DNA of 64,000 nucleotides from Carcharhinus amblyrhynchos. Lineage: Eukaryota. Location of the stretch: contig OZ336872.1 of NCBI GenBank assembly GCA_965287045.1, forward strand, positions 32,550,001-32,614,000. Direction: 5' to 3'. Numbering within the stretch: position 1 is the first letter of the stretch; each line of letters begins with the position of its first letter. Below are positions 36,001-39,000 of the stretch, one piece after another. A program made the position numbers.

Positions 36001-39000
36001 TAATTATCACAATACCAATAAAACAGGTAAACAGACTGATGCACAGTAATTGTATCTCACTGAGAGCAAAATCTAGGCACTGGAAGAAGTATTGCATAAA
36101 TAAATTTGTACCGACATCACATATATAGGGGCAATTCACCTAGCCCACTATGCTACTCCAGCAGCACAACGCGTTGGGAGACATCAGCTGTTTCACTGGC
36201 TTCCCACTGGGCGCCACAATCTCCGTATATCTCTGAGCTATGAGTTCCAGAGTAATCAGCTCCATGCCAGAAATTGGCACAAAGCCGCTTATCAAATGGA
36301 AATCACAATTTAAAATTAATTGACGGGCCTGGGACTGAAGTCTCCGGGCCCGCTAGCATCTGGCCCCCTCCCACCCACCAGGAGTAGTTCACTACAGCAG
36401 GATTTATAACTGCTCCCCCTAGTGGGGAACAGGCAACCGATCCCGCTGGAGTGAAGGGAGGCTAATGAGGCCACCCCAGGAAGTTGGGAGGTAAGAGGGG
36501 TGCCCCTGGGACAGCACCACGTAGCACTGCCCAAGAGGCACCTTGGCACGGCTCACCAGGCAATGTCAAGGGCTAGAGCCACAGGGAGGTGGGACCTACT
36601 GGGGGGCGGGGGGGAGGGGTCCTGCTACCACTCTGTACAGGGATTGCAGGCAAATGGAGGGAGGACAGATATTAAGGCTGGCCACCTGTGTCCGTGAGGG
36701 GAGGAGAGGGTGGATCGGGACTGCCAGAGAATCATTAGGGGTGGGGGAGGGAAGTTGGAGATCAGAGCTGGTCAGGGGTCGGGGGGAGGGGAAAGTCAGG
36801 GCTTGTTTGGGGAAGTCCTGGAGTAAGAAGTCTCACAACACCAGGATAAAGTCCAACAAATTTATTTGATAATAAACCCACAAGCTTTCGGGGTTTGCCC
36901 CTTCGTCAGGTGAGTCTCACCTGACGAAGGGGCAAACCCCGAAAGCTTGCAGGTTTACTATCAAATAAACTTGTTGAATAAACTTGTTGGACTTTAGCCT
37001 GGTGTTATGAGACTTCTTACTGTGTTTACCCCAGTCCAACACTGGCATCTCCACATCATGAAGTCCTGGAGGCCAGGAATCAAGGTGTGGGGAGTTCACA
37101 AGCCCGGCAATGGGGAGTTGTGGGGATGGCCAGCAATTGGGAGGCCACGCTGAAAGATCGGCGCATGTGTAGTGACCCGGTCAGCGCTATGCTGGCGGCC
37201 TCTCGGGCAGGAATAGGCCCCACCCTCAGATTTCCGGAGGGAATCACATGAGGGCACTCTGTGATTCACACAGCGTTGGAGATTCACTCTGGAAATCACA
37301 CAGGAGAAAGCTAGCAGCATTTACTCCCATTTTCTCGCAAATTAGGAACTTTGAATCTTTTTGGGAGAATCCCAGCCATAGTCTTCCAATATAGTTCCTG
37401 GGTGCAAATTTATTTATTTCAAGCAGAAATTGCAATCATGTGGAAGCAGACATCCACTTACACCAATCTGAGGTCCCTATCTGCTTCACGAAGACAACCT
37501 TCATTCCTGTGTCAAAAAGCCAGGCAGCATGCCTTAATGACTATTTTCCAGTGGCTCTCTGACATCAATCATTATGAAGTGCTTAGAAAGATTAGTCATG
37601 ACACAAATCAATTCTTGCCTCCCAGATTGCCTGGATCCACGACAGTTCGCCTGTCGCCACAACAGGTTCACAGCAGACGCCATCTCTCTACCCTCAACCC
37701 TGCAGCATGTAGATAACAAAGTCACTTACGTCAGGCTCATATTTAATGACTGCAGTTCAGCCTTCAACACCATTATTCCATCAAAACATATCTCCAAACT
37801 CCGTGGCCAGGGGCTCAGCTTCTCCTTATGCAACTGTATCCTAGACTTCCTAACCCACAGACTGCAATCAGTAAGGATAGGGAAAAACACCTCCTCCATG
37901 ATCATTCTCAACACCTGTGCCCCACAAGGCTGTGTCCTCAGCCCCTCACTATACTTCTTATAGACCCATGACTGTGTGGCCACATTCCCCTCCAACGCGA
38001 TCTTCATGTTTGCTTATGACACCACTGTGGTGAGTCGGATCTTAAACAATGATGAGATGGAGTACAGGAAAGAGATAGAGGATCTGGTGAAATGGAAGGA
38101 CAACAATAATCTCTTCCTCAATACCAACAATGTGAAGGAGATAGTCATCAACTTCAGGAAATGTAGTGGAAGACATGCCCCTGTCTACATCGTAAAAAGT
38201 CTGACAACACCAGGTTTAAGTCCAACCAATTTATTTGATAGTAAACTCACTAGCTTTCCTAGTGAGCTAGTGAGTTTACTATCAAATAAATCGGTTGGAC
38301 TTAAACCTGGTGCTGTCAGACTTTTTACTGTGTTTACCCCAGTCCAACACCGGCATATCCACATCCTGTCTACATCAACAGGGATGAAGCGGAAACTGTC
38401 CAGAATTTCAAGTTCCTCAGTATTCAGATCACCAACAACCTTTCCTGGTCCTCCACGCCAACACTATAGTTAAGTAAGCCCACCAGCACCTCTACTTTCT
38501 CAGATGGCTAAGGAAATTTGGCGTGTCTGCTATGATTCCCACCAACGTCTACAGATGCACCACAGAAAGTATTCTTTCTGCTTGTGTCACAGCTTGGTAT
38601 GGCTCCTGCTCTGTCTAAGACTGCAAGAAACGTGAACAAAGTCCAGTCCATCACATAACCAGCTCCCATCCACTGATGCTGTCTACACTTCCTCTGGCCT
38701 CGGAAAAGCATCCAGCATAATTAAGGACCCCACGCACCTCAGACATACTCTCTTTCGTCGGGAAAAAGATACAAAAGTCTGACTTCATGTACCAACCGAA
38801 CAGTTTCTCCTCTGCTGCCATCAGACTTTTGAATGGACCTACCTTGTATTAAATTGGTCTTTCTCTACATTCCAGCTATGAATGTAATACAACATTCTGC
38901 ACTCTCTCCTTTCCTTCTCCATGTACAGTACGCTTTGTCTGCAAAGCATGCAAGAAACAATACTTTTCCCTGTATACTAATACATGTGACAATAATAAAT

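What the first reader, a model, noticed from the sequence alone, without database searches (positions are those of the whole stretch)
36824..37059. Second fold-back copy: stem II changes sequence but keeps pairing
Seen: 12-bp TSD, centre at 36915, stem II gggg-caaa-cccc. The other copies have gaggg-taac-ccctc (60275), gaggg-agtc-ccctc (45911-45924, minus) and ggagc-agt-gctc(a) (~4040, minus). The core CUGA(C/U)GA-a and GAAAGCU stay nearly fixed. Inference: structure-preserving variation among subfamilies indicates selection on a functional RNA fold, and at least two or three subfamilies have been active.
Basis: partly seen in the sequence, partly recalled or inferred. Interest (0 to 1): 0.75.

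Follow-up and report, generated by a model that had tools for sequence, protein, structure and literature searches.

The report
Penelope-like retroelement stub with minimal hammerhead
The 236-base fold-back is most likely a truncated insertion of a Penelope-like retrotransposon, two short end-pieces joined head to head, each carrying the small hammerhead ribozyme motif already known from these elements, so it is real but ordinary.

Summary
Window 36824-37059 is a fold-back with an exact 12-bp target-site duplication, centred on base 36915. It carries CUGACGA-a-GGGG-CAAA-CCCC-GAAAGCUU on both strands.

Five more insertions of the same family lie in the window: B 60101-60356, C 45844-45950, D 3943-4141, E 38192-38364 and F 12146-12339.

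The anatomy matches published descriptions of Penelope-like elements (PLEs):
- inverted 5'-truncated copies;
- a 34-40-nt "tail" on one end only;
- short target duplications;
- a minimal type-I hammerhead with an extra base after A9, a G10.1-C11.1 pair and an AGCU palindrome in place of helix III (PMC4209133, PMC8557442, PMC3846280, PMC11167929).

Helix II keeps pairing through changes on both sides at 3 of 5 pairs. The core is 42/42 identical between the two best-kept subfamilies, against 39% for helix II plus loop. Only five distinct rows are available, so this is suggestive, not a significant covariation test. Helix I shows no two-sided change.

Transcripts of the fold-back itself fold into one long hairpin that buries the core. 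Any selection therefore acted on source elements, not on this copy.

No PLE reverse transcriptase or GIY-YIG ORF lies in the window.

Verdict: new member of a known kind, low interest.

The parts
36812..36823 (.). Left target-site duplication of copy A (GAAGTCCTGGAG)
   Evidence: Exact 12-bp match to 37060-37071.
36824..36914 (-). Copy A, left arm: the 3'-terminal 91 nt of the element read on the minus strand, without tail. Its minimal hammerhead has core CTGACGA at 36909-36903 and GAAAGCTT at 36889-36882.
   Evidence: Alignment with the other arms. CM matches on 36875-36916: 57.7 bits and 43.1 bits. Helix I has 5 native pairs and helix II 4 G-C pairs. The isolated 47-nt stretch folds as helix I plus helix II with an open core.
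36915..36915 (.). Single unpaired base at the head-to-head junction of copy A
   Evidence: One nt lies between the inverted arms.
36916..37019 (+). Copy A, right arm: the same 3'-terminal unit on the plus strand. Its hammerhead motif is at 36921-36948. The helix I 3' strand is mutated (GCAGG), and a 13-bp tandem duplication lies at 36964-36989.
   Evidence: helix I only 1 bp; 41.1 bits; TRF 36964-36989, 2.0 copies, 100% match.
37020..37059 (+). 40-nt 'tail', present on this end only. It is A/C-rich and predicted to form its own small stem-loop.
   Evidence: It aligns with the tails of B, D, E and F. It is folded as a separate hairpin. It corresponds to the 30-40-bp PLE tail of PMC8557442 and PMC3846280, and to the stretch between two reverse-transcription start sites in PMC11167929.
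37060..37071 (.). Right target-site duplication of copy A
60101..60356 (-). Copy B, the youngest. It has a tail at 60101-60139, 108-nt arms at 60140-60247 and 60249-60356 that are 100% complementary, 1 nt between them, and a 12-bp TSD (CTCCTTGATATT) at 60089-60100 and 60357-60368. Hammerhead motifs lie on - from 60229 and on + from 60267.
   Evidence: (67.1 bits each). Rfam Hammerhead_1 scores 13.3 bits on the right arm alone, below the cut-off of 34.
45844..45950 (-). Copy C: one 96-nt arm (45844-45939, hammerhead on -) joined directly to the last 11 nt of a tail (45940-45950, +). The TSD is 12-13 bp.
   Evidence: (61 bits).
3943..4141 (-). Copy D, old and decayed. It has a tail on the left, arms 69% identical, hammerhead cores mutated (GAAG; CUGAGGGA), and a TSD no longer exact.
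   Evidence: (23.6 and 12.5 bits).
38192..38364 (+). Copy E: 68-nt arms truncated inside GAAAGC, so it has no hammerhead core. The tail is on the right. The 12-bp TSD is CCTGTCTACATC. It is inserted in a LINE reverse-transcriptase remnant.
12146..12339 (.). Copy F, a complex copy. From left to right: a tail plus 13 nt of the terminus (-), a second partial tail (+), about 75 nt of unrelated sequence, then the last ~23 nt of the terminus (+). The TSD is 14-17 bp.
   Evidence: A peptide search of the internal ORF found nothing.

Best explanation
Window 36824-37059 is a dead-on-arrival insertion of a Penelope-like retroelement (PLE). Two copies of the element's 3'-terminal ~91 nt are joined head to head. 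One of them is extended by the 40-nt 'tail', and the whole is flanked by a 12-bp target-site duplication.

Inferred mechanism, taken from published PLE biochemistry:
1. The element's GIY-YIG endonuclease nicks both target strands about 12 bp apart.
2. Each 3'-OH primes reverse transcription at one of two neighbouring internal start sites on the element RNA. Here these would be the inner site ...UUAC and the outer site ...CACAUCAU, and the tail is the stretch between them.
3. The two short cDNAs are joined at their 5'-truncated ends.

Each arm carries, about 70 nt upstream of the terminus, the minimal type-I hammerhead typical of PLE pseudo-LTRs:
- helix I of about 5 bp;
- CUGACGA;
- one unpaired A;
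- helix II of 4-5 bp closed by G10.1-C11.1;
- GAAA;
- an AGCU palindrome in place of helix III;
- U17, with the predicted cut after GCUU.

Such motifs are thought to act only as dimers or with the element's protein, in transcripts of source elements. In this copy the motif cannot fold, because the transcript is one long hairpin. The structure-preserving differences in helix II between copies reflect selection in the lineages of source elements.

Shown here: the anatomy, the motif, its excess over chance, and the pattern of conservation.
Inferred: the mechanism of insertion, ribozyme activity, and the link to an autonomous PLE.
For: Insertion anatomy:
- Exact 12-bp TSDs in 4 of 6 copies, 14-17 bp in F, decayed in D.
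- A one-sided tail of 34-40 nt in 5 of 6 copies, and an 11-nt remnant in the sixth.
- Tail-less ends stop within 3 nt of each other...TTA, TTAC, TTACT, TTACTG.
- Head-to-head arms have 1 nt between them in A and B.
- Copy C, a 96-nt arm plus only the last 11 nt of the tail, fits two separately primed cDNAs.

Hammerhead motif:
- Descriptor matches: 7 observed against 0.09 expected; 5 of the 7 are this family.
- The extra A after A9 is present in 7 of 7 arms. G10.1-C11.1 is present in 6 of 7. AGCU plus U17 is present in 5 of 7.
- Isolated B and A(-) windows fold to helix I plus helix II with an open core.
- Rfam Hammerhead_1 is the only ribozyme family to surface on B's right arm: 13.3 bits, E 1.5, below the cut-off of 34.

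Conservation:
- Core C3-A9 is 42/42 identical between the B family and A, against 39% for helix II plus loop and 65% for the linker.
- 3 of 5 helix II pairs change on both sides, and 87.5% of cells are paired against 26-55% when the partners are slid.

Literature:
- PMC4209133 (text read, parts 1-2 of 4): min-HHRs in PLE pLTRs have an unpaired base after position 9, G10.1-C11.1, a palindromic 15.2-16.2, dimeric action and opposite-strand pairs, and occur in fishes, coelacanth, frog and reptiles but not mammals.
- PMC8557442 (passages): an inverted 5'-truncated copy, and a 30-40-bp tail often at one end only.
- PMC3846280 (passages): inverted pLTRs, a 31-bp tail on one of them, 8-10-bp TSDs, palindromes at the inverted junction, and foreign sequence captured between pLTRs.
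- PMC11167929 (main text read): both strands are cleaved and extended, there are two internal start sites in an AC-rich stem-loop, and the tail is the sequence between them.
Against: - No PLE-type reverse transcriptase or GIY-YIG domain lies in the window. Pfam was run on 16 ORFs and on 148 of the 154 ORFs of at least 75 aa. It found only RVT_1 in three LINE-type fragments, so the link to an autonomous PLE rests on architecture and the motif alone.
- No Rfam hammerhead model reaches its gathering score. None appears at E up to 10 on copy A. The match on B is sub-threshold.
- Self-cleavage is untested. Published min-HHRs cleave poorly in vitro, and in the anole element the ribozyme was not needed for insertion in vitro (PMC4209133, PMC11167929).
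- Covariation rests on 5 distinct rows in an alignment fitted to the structure. Helix I has none.
- All arms are at most 108 nt and nearly symmetric. Simple random 5' truncation of a long element does not predict that.
- The predicted dimer minimum-free-energy structures did not show the AGCU:AGCU helix III.
Confidence: 0.85

Rival explanations
1. A dedicated short non-autonomous element. It would be a ~110-150-nt RNA (helix I, hammerhead, linker, 3' recognition domain, tail) that parasitises a PLE enzyme and is copied in full. On this reading the inner ends of the arms mark the 5' end of the RNA and are not random truncation points. This differs from the best explanation only in what the template was.
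For: - All arms in 6 of 6 copies are short, at most 108 nt of family sequence.
- The arms of A, B, E and D are (near-)equal in length.
- The inner ends of A, C and D lie about 5 nt upstream of C3, and B's lies 18 nt upstream.
- No autonomous ORF lies in the window.
- Non-autonomous PLE derivatives are described in the literature (PMC8557442 passages; bioRxiv 10.64898/2026.07.22.740005 abstract).
Against: - The inner ends differ between copies: E stops inside GAAAGC, and B runs 13 nt further than A.
- Six insertions are too few to define a length distribution.
- No promoter or transcription start was tested.
- Self-priming would also give equal arms (PMC3846280 passages).
Confidence: 0.25
2. 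The hammerhead-like motif is a chance or relic feature of a palindromic repeat, with no ribozyme function in any copy or source. The apparent compensation in stem II is then an accident of few sequences.
For: - Only 5 distinct rows, in an alignment fitted to the structure.
- Rfam scores are below threshold.
- Published min-HHRs have low activity in vitro (PMC4209133).
Against: - The motif is about 80-fold over expectation.
- The core is 42/42 identical where neighbouring helix II plus loop is 39% identical.
- Four independent idiosyncrasies of the published PLE min-HHR are all present: the extra base, G10.1-C11.1, the palindromic 15.2/16.2 pair and a short helix I.
Confidence: 0.07
3. A MITE or Foldback-type DNA transposon: terminal inverted repeats cut and pasted by a transposase, with a fixed-length TSD.
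For: Long inverted arms and an exact 12-bp TSD in 4 copies.
Against: - There is a 34-40-nt unpaired extension on one end only.
- Copy C keeps a TSD with only one arm.
- Arm length varies from the centre outward (68, 91, 108 nt), while the outer ends are fixed to within 3 nt.
- TSD length varies from 12 to 17 bp.
- No transposase domain lies in the window.
Confidence: 0.03
4. A metazoan non-LTR retrozyme: tandem type-I hammerhead repeats that give circular RNAs.
For: The motif is a type-I hammerhead of animal type, and retrozymes are proposed to be PLE derivatives (PMC7229834 search-listing abstract only; bioRxiv 10.64898/2026.07.22.740005 abstract).
Against: - No tandem array of the unit exists. 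TRF finds only a 13-bp duplication inside copy A.
- Copies are dispersed, inverted and flanked by TSDs.
- There is no helix III, so the canonical model is not met.
Confidence: 0.03
5. A hairpin-RNA or microRNA-like gene.
For: The perfect long hairpin gives sub-threshold matches to miRNA precursor models. MIR841 scores 71 bits against a cut-off of 200, and mir-208 scores 27 against 56.
Against: - All matches are far below the gathering scores, and they follow from any long palindrome.
- The locus is one of six TSD-flanked repeat copies.
Confidence: 0.02

Closest known systems
Minimal hammerhead ribozymes (min-HHR) of Penelope-like element pseudo-LTRs (Cervera & de la Pena 2014, PMC4209133)
   Same: - Type-I topology with no real helix III.
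- A palindromic 15.2/16.2 pair (AGCU).
- An unpaired base between A9 and 10.1.
- A G10.1-C11.1 closing pair.
- A short helix I of 4-5 bp.
- Many sequence variants of helix II within one genome.
- Pairs of motifs on opposite strands.
- Occurrence mostly in truncated copies.
   Different: - Helix II is 4-5 bp here, against 7-8 bp in the Schistosoma families described in the text.
- The opposite-strand motifs are 11-37 nt apart here, against about 100-700 bp.
- The host appears to be a cartilaginous fish, a group not named in the parts of that paper I read.
PLE insertion architecture: inverted 5'-truncated copy plus 30-40-bp tail (Craig et al. 2021, PMC8557442; Arkhipova et al. 2013, PMC3846280)
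   Same: - Head-to-head inverted copies.
- A tail on one end only.
- A short TSD.
- A palindrome at the inverted junction.
- An occasional foreign sequence between the termini (copy F).
   Different: - Here the whole insertion is only the two termini (173-256 bp), with no ORF and no direct pLTR.
- TSDs are 12-17 bp, against 8-10 bp in the rotifer examples.
Poseidon PAc of Anolis carolinensis, in vitro mechanism (Frangieh et al. 2024, PMC11167929)
   Same: - A hammerhead lies upstream.
- Two neighbouring reverse-transcription start sites lie roughly 70-110 nt downstream of it.
- The tail is the stretch between those sites, and it is A/C-rich and hairpin-forming.
- The anatomy implies that both target strands are used as primers.
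   Different: - In PAc the ORF starts at stem II and the start sites lie inside the ORF. Here the stretch from hammerhead to tail has stop codons in every frame that I read by eye, and the only ATG of note is at the very end of the tail.
- No sequence similarity to PAc was tested, because no PAc sequence was available to me.
Metazoan non-LTR retrozymes (PMC7229834, search listing only; bioRxiv 10.64898/2026.07.22.740005, abstract and passages)
   Same: Animal type-I hammerheads in non-autonomous elements that are thought to depend on PLEs.
   Different: Retrozymes are head-to-tail tandem arrays with canonical hammerheads. This family is dispersed, inverted and minimal.

Membership tests
Hammerhead ribozyme, PLE min-HHR variant | Catalytic core C3-U4-G5-A6-N7-G8-A9 and G12-A13-A14 | tested here: met
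   CTGACGA and GAAA are intact in 5 of 7 arms (A left, A right, B left, B right, C). D left has CTGATGA but GAAG. D right has CTGAGGGA.
Hammerhead ribozyme, PLE min-HHR variant | Helix II closed by G10.1-C11.1, preceded by one unpaired base after A9 | tested here: met
   The extra A is present in 7 of 7 arms. G-C at 10.1/11.1 is present in 6 of 7 (G.A in D left). Helix II is 4-5 bp.
Hammerhead ribozyme, PLE min-HHR variant | No stable helix III; palindromic 15.2/16.2, U16.1, H17 not G | tested here: met
   A-G-C-U followed by U is present in 5 of 7 arms. AAGCUU self-pairs at -6.5 kcal/mol as an isolated duplex.
Hammerhead ribozyme, PLE min-HHR variant | Helix I of about 4-6 bp flanking the core | tested here: inconclusive
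   Helix I is 5 bp in B (both arms), 5 native bp in A left and 4 in D left. It is 1 bp in A right (mutated) and 2 in C, whose arm is truncated there. There is no two-sided covariation.
Hammerhead ribozyme, PLE min-HHR variant | Covariation supporting helices | tested here: inconclusive
   3 of 5 helix II pairs change on both sides. 6 of 500 shuffles reach the observed cell count. Only 5 distinct rows are available, and the alignment is fitted to the model.
Hammerhead ribozyme, PLE min-HHR variant | Self-cleavage after H17 | not testable with these tools
   This needs in vitro transcription of dimers, with and without the element protein, or RNA-end mapping.
Rfam Hammerhead_1 (RF00163), canonical type I | Score at or above the gathering cut-off (34 bits) | tested here: not met
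   There is no match at gathering in the window. None appears at E up to 10 on copy A. The score on B's right arm is 13.3 bits. This is expected for a motif without helix III.
Penelope-like element (PLE) | ORF with telomerase-like RT and GIY-YIG endonuclease | tested here: not met
   Pfam on 16 ORFs and on 148 of 154 ORFs of at least 75 aa found RVT_1 only in three LINE-type fragments and no GIY-YIG domain. The copies are therefore truncated or non-autonomous. The rest of the genome could not be searched.
Penelope-like element (PLE) | Inverted 5'-truncated copies (inverted pLTRs) with a palindromic junction | tested here: met
   A, B, D and E are head to head, and A and B have 1 nt between the arms.
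Penelope-like element (PLE) | 30-40-bp tail on one end of the insertion | tested here: met
   The tail is 34-40 nt and on exactly one end in A, B, D, E and F. C has an 11-nt remnant.
Penelope-like element (PLE) | Short target-site duplication | tested here: met
   12 bp in A, B and E; 12-13 bp in C; 14-17 bp in F; decayed in D.
Penelope-like element (PLE) | Hammerhead motif in the terminal repeat | tested here: met
   See the rows above. The motif lies about 70 nt upstream of the inner terminus.
Metazoan non-LTR retrozyme | Head-to-tail tandem repeats of a hammerhead-bearing unit | tested here: not met
   TRF finds no array of the unit in the window. The self-BLAST shows only inverted and dispersed copies.
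MITE / Foldback DNA transposon | Symmetric terminal inverted repeats and fixed-length TSD | tested here: not met
   There is a one-sided 34-40-nt extension. Copy C has a single arm yet keeps a TSD. TSD length ranges from 12 to 17 bp.

The most novel reading that the evidence does not exclude
The short fold-backs are full-length products of a dedicated ~110-150-nt hammerhead-bearing RNA, not random stubs of a long element. This RNA would hijack a PLE enzyme. Both target strands would prime on it, both cDNAs would run to its defined 5' end just upstream of helix I, and an end-to-end template jump would join them, with the single central base untemplated. That would make the family a distinct, symmetric 'twin-primed' mini-element. 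It would give a natural read-out of the two start sites and of dual-strand priming, which has so far been shown only in vitro. As a corollary, the perfect hairpins could be sources of small RNAs against the active elements.
Probability: 0.2. Interest if true: 0.45.

Novelty: new member of a known kind. Interest (0 to 1): 0.2.

Why it matters
It matters little on its own. It adds a family of PLE termini with minimal hammerheads, probably in a cartilaginous-fish genome, to a class described since 2014.

Its use is practical:
- Such palindromic stubs should be annotated as PLE insertions, not as MITEs, hairpin-RNA genes or new ribozymes.
- The six copies show both predicted reverse-transcription start sites to within 3 nt.
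- They show a strict one-tail-per-insertion rule and near-equal arms. These are genomic footprints that bear on the still unsettled PLE integration mechanism.

Tried and rejected
1. Rfam at gathering thresholds over the whole window found no family. At E up to 10 on copy A it gave only miRNA-precursor and other sub-threshold matches that any long palindrome gives. I rejected these as an identification.

2. My first covariance model, R1, included copy A with MAFFT's gap placement, so A was aligned out of structural register. I rebuilt the model from B and C only (R2) and counted pairs on that alignment.

3. RNAcofold of two copies of the minimal motif gave extended or domain-swapped duplexes, not the double hammerhead with an AGCU:AGCU helix III. 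The explicit dimer string I wrote is a pseudoknot and was not evaluated, so there is no energetic support either way.

4. I looked for a PLE ORF. Pfam on ORFs found nothing. Three ORFs antisense to the LINE RT at 4972-5783 were left out.

5. I searched the ORF that runs from the ATG at the end of the second tail in copy F (window 12183-12317) against longer proteins. One candidate came up and none scored at E up to 10. This is weak evidence, because the query is 45 aa.

6. A literature search for a 23-nt stretch of the conserved terminus found 0 papers. 'hammerhead + shark + SINE + ribozyme' found 1 irrelevant paper.

7. RNAalifold on the terminus plus tail gave an 8-bp GUUGGACU/AGUCCAAC stem with no covariation and -5.5 kcal/mol. 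I keep it only as a note.

8. A second hammerhead-like hit at 10957-10927 (-) has a 7-bp helix I but a G.U-rich helix II, and no U16.1/H17. It has no Rfam match. I take it for chance.

Not checked:
Genome-wide copies, subfamily structure and an autonomous partner therefore stayed unexamined.
- The supplementary PDF of PMC4209133, which holds the alignments of vertebrate min-HHRs, could not be read.
- bioRxiv supplements are closed.
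Full report
**Observation.**
- GAAGTCCTGGAG occurs at 36812-36823 and again at 37060-37071, an exact 12-bp match.
- Between them lies a fold-back whose arms meet at a single base, 36915. Arms 36854-36914 and 36916-36976 are 93% complementary, as are 36822-36866 and 36977-37021. A 13-bp tandem duplication at 36964-36989 sits in the right arm.
- On the plus strand CTGACGA-A-GGGG-CAAA-CCCC-GAAAGCTT runs from 36921 to 36948. Its mirror image lies on the minus strand from 36909 to 36882.
- The window has no N.

**Is it more than chance?** I scanned both strands with a descriptor made of CTGANGA, an optional extra base, a stem of at least 4 bp with a 3-8-nt loop, and GAAA.
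- It matches 7 times, against a mean of 0.09 (maximum 1) in 200 first-order Markov simulations of the window.
- Five of the seven matches are this family.
- Three also have the palindromic 15.2/16.2 pair, U16.1, a non-G at position 17 and a helix I of at least 4 bp, against none in the simulations.
- A covariance model built from two or three copies finds the same arms and nothing else. With R2, 6 matches score at E up to 0.5. With R1, 23 matches score at E up to 10; the top 6 (E up to 5e-5) and two weaker ones (E 0.23 and 0.73) are this family, and the other 15 have E of 2 or more.

**The family in the window.** A self-BLAST and reading of the hits give six insertions:

| Copy | Coordinates | Notes |
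|---|---|---|
| A | 36824-37059 | the finding |
| B | 60101-60356 | youngest |
| C | 45844-45950 | one arm plus a tail remnant |
| D | 3943-4141 | old, decayed |
| E | 38192-38364 | no hammerhead core |
| F | 12146-12339 | complex |

Aligned in one orientation, the unit reads as follows: helix I 5' strand, hammerhead core and helix II, GAAAGCUU, helix I 3' strand, an A/U-rich linker of about 30 nt, a well-conserved 3' domain of about 37 nt ending ...GACUUYUUAC, and then a 34-40-nt A/C-rich tail.

Four features recur.
1. The outer ends are fixed. Tail-less arms stop at ...TTA, TTAC, TTACT or TTACTG. Tails stop at ...CCAC, CCACAT or CCACATCAT(G).
2. Exactly one end of each insertion has the tail. 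In C this is only its last 11 nt.
3. The inner ends vary between copies. The arms are 68 nt in E, 91 in A and 108 in B, so the palindrome grows or shrinks from the centre.
4. TSDs are 12 bp in A, B and E, 12-13 bp in C, 14-17 bp in F, and decayed in D.

Arm-to-arm similarity ranges from 100% complementary in B to 90% identical in E, 83% in A and 69% in D. B, C and E share ...GTCAGACTTTTTAC, while A, D and F share ...GTGAGACTTCTTA. So subfamilies of clearly different age are present.

**What it is.** This anatomy is the published signature of Penelope-like elements.
- Craig et al. describe insertions with high 5' truncation. They report an inverted 5'-truncated copy adjacent to the unit, and a 30-40-bp 'tail' often present at only one end (PMC8557442, passages read).
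- Arkhipova et al. describe inverted pseudo-LTRs and a 31-bp tail on one of them. They also report 8-10-bp TSDs, palindromes at the inverted junction, and unrelated sequence captured between solo pLTRs and flanked by TSDs (PMC3846280, passages read). The last point fits copy F.
- Frangieh et al. show in vitro that the anole Poseidon protein cleaves and extends both target strands. Reverse transcription starts at two adjacent internal sites in an AC-rich stem-loop downstream of the hammerhead, and the genomic tail is the sequence between the two sites (PMC11167929, main text read).

On this reading each fold-back here consists of two short cDNAs, one started at the inner site and one at the outer site, joined at their truncated ends. 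Copy C supports two separate priming events, because a 96-nt arm is joined to only the last 11 nt of a tail.

**The hammerhead.** The motif matches, point by point, the 'min-HHR' that Cervera and de la Pena found in PLE pseudo-LTRs (PMC4209133, parts 1-2 of 4 read):
- an unpaired base between A9 and 10.1 (A in 7 of 7 arms);
- a G10.1-C11.1 pair (6 of 7);
- no real helix III, but a palindromic 15.2/16.2 pair (AGCU then U17, 5 of 7);
- a short helix I: 5 bp in both B arms, 5 native bp in A's left arm, 4 in D's left arm.

That paper also reports many helix II variants per genome, motifs mostly in truncated copies, pairs on opposite strands, low activity in vitro and probable action as dimers.

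Further results here:
- Isolated 47-51-nt windows of B and of A's minus-strand copy fold to helix I plus helix II with an open core.
- The canonical Rfam model is not met. There is nothing at gathering and nothing at E up to 10 on A. Hammerhead_1 scores 13.3 bits on B's right arm against a cut-off of 34. This is as expected for a motif without helix III.

On the alignment fitted by model R2 (6 matches, 5 distinct rows), the results for helix II are as follows.
- 3 of 5 pairs change on both sides: 10.2/11.2 is A-U in B and C and G-C in A and D; 10.3/11.3 is G-C or A-U; 10.5/11.5 is G-C or C-G.
- 95.7% of cells are paired.

For helix I:
- no pair changes on both sides;
- 80% of cells are paired.

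For the structure as a whole:
- 87.5% of cells pair, against 26-55% when partners are slid by 1-3 columns;
- 6 of 500 shuffles reach the observed number of two-sided cells;
- 20 of 500 reach the covariation score.

Between subfamilies the core is much better kept than its surroundings (the E rows, which only partly cover this region, are included in those counts):

| Region | B family vs A | vs D |
|---|---|---|
| Core C3-A9 | 42/42 | 79% |
| Core G12-H17 | 72/80 | 74-81% |
| Helix II plus loop | 39% | not quoted |
| Linker | 65% | not quoted |
| 3' domain | 79-86% across all comparisons | 79-86% across all comparisons |

The sample is still far too small for a significance test of the R-scape kind, and the alignment leans towards the structure.

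The inference also needs correcting in one respect. The fold-back is not a functional RNA fold. Transcripts of A, B or E in either direction are predicted to form a single hairpin of -108 to -217 kcal/mol, with the hammerhead core fully paired to its own complement. Selection on the ribozyme fold can only have acted in the source elements.

**What is missing.** No PLE-type ORF lies in the window.
- Pfam found only RVT_1, in three LINE-type fragments (4378-5709, 37541-37963, 48299-48820), and no GIY-YIG domain. It was run on 16 ORFs and on 148 of the 154 ORFs of at least 75 aa. Of the six left out, three had been scanned and three lie antisense to the first RT.
- The first RT fragment is CR1-like.
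- Its best named relatives are in cartilaginous fishes at 60-66% identity. Bird and turtle CR1 copies are 40-56% identical.
- Together with the reported absence of min-HHR families from mammals (PMC4209133), I take the window for a non-human, probably chondrichthyan, genome.
- Membership in the PLE class therefore rests on insertion architecture and the ribozyme variant, not on an enzyme. No eukaryotic genome collection was available to look for the autonomous partner.

**Points that the simple model does not explain** (note 3).
- The arms are nearly equal within each of A, B, D and E.
- The inner ends of A, C and D fall about 5 nt upstream of C3, and B's falls 18 nt upstream.
- Two independent, randomly truncated cDNAs would not be equal in length.
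- Either both cDNAs run to a common 5' end of a short template and are joined by an end-to-end jump, or the second arm is copied from the first. The second is the self-priming idea of PMC3846280.
- This is the basis of the most novel reading I keep open, at a probability of about 0.2.
- An 8-nt complement, GUUGGACU in the 3' domain and AGUCCAAC in the tail, is kept in 4 of 4 copies that hold both, without covariation.

**Verdict.** The thing is a new member of a known kind, a PLE terminus with its minimal hammerhead, and is of low interest.

**Papers.**
- PMC4209133: parts 1-2 of 4 of the text read; the supplement is a PDF I could not read.
- PMC8557442, PMC3846280 and PMC8969392: passages only.
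- PMC11167929: outline and the whole main-text section.
- bioRxiv 10.64898/2026.07.22.740005: abstract and passages.
- PMC7229834: seen only in the search listing.

Noticed in passing
window 45844-45950: Copy C is a single 96-nt arm joined directly to only the last 11 nt of the tail, yet it has a clean 12-13-bp TSD. This looks like one cDNA that aborted after 11 nt, and it argues that the two ends of an insertion are primed separately.
   Followed up: partly
window 12146-12339: Copy F carries a second partial tail in the opposite orientation and about 75 nt of unrelated sequence between the two termini. An ORF runs from an ATG at the end of that tail (frame 12183-12410, 76 aa). A search against longer proteins found nothing. 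It may be captured sequence or the start of the element body.
   Followed up: partly
window 36824-37059, 60101-60356, 38192-38364, 3943-4141: The arms of each head-to-head copy are nearly equal in length (91/91 after removing a 13-bp duplication, 108/108, 68/68, 86/78). The inner ends cluster 0-18 nt upstream of the hammerhead core. Random 5' truncation does not predict this.
   Followed up: partly
window 60101-60176 (-), 36985-37059, 38290-38364, 3943-4012 (-): An 8-nt stretch of the 3' domain (GUUGGACU) is complementary to AGUCCAAC in the tail in all 4 copies that hold both. The inner start site would sit in the loop of this stem. There is no covariation and the predicted energy is weak.
   Followed up: partly
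window 37315-38473: Copy E sits inside a LINE reverse-transcriptase remnant (RVT_1 at 37541-37963). The stop-to-stop frame 37964-38473 stays open across the insertion, presumably by chance.
   Followed up: no
window 4378-5709: A 443-aa open CR1-type reverse-transcriptase fragment lies 240 bp downstream of copy D. Its best named relatives are in cartilaginous fishes (60-66% identity), with bird and turtle copies at 40-56%. It is not a PLE enzyme.
   Followed up: partly
window 10927-10957 (-): A lone hammerhead-like string has CTGATGA, GAAAC and a 7-bp helix I, but its helix II is G.U-rich and it has no U16.1/H17. It has no Rfam match. It is probably chance.
   Followed up: partly
window 36950-36953 versus 36878-36881: The two arms of copy A differ by TG versus CA at the same dinucleotide in the helix I 3' strand. 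This is the pattern that decay of a CpG gives, and it breaks helix I on the plus-strand copy only.
   Followed up: no
window 57999-58414: G-rich tandem repeats with periods of 117, 34 and 43 bp, about 2 copies each. They are unrelated to the finding.
   Followed up: no
window 60308-60316 and the equivalent linker positions in A, C and E: The linker between the hammerhead and the 3' domain holds AATAAA (in ATCAAATAAAT), about 45 nt upstream of the inner terminus. Whether it serves as a polyadenylation signal is unknown.
   Followed up: no
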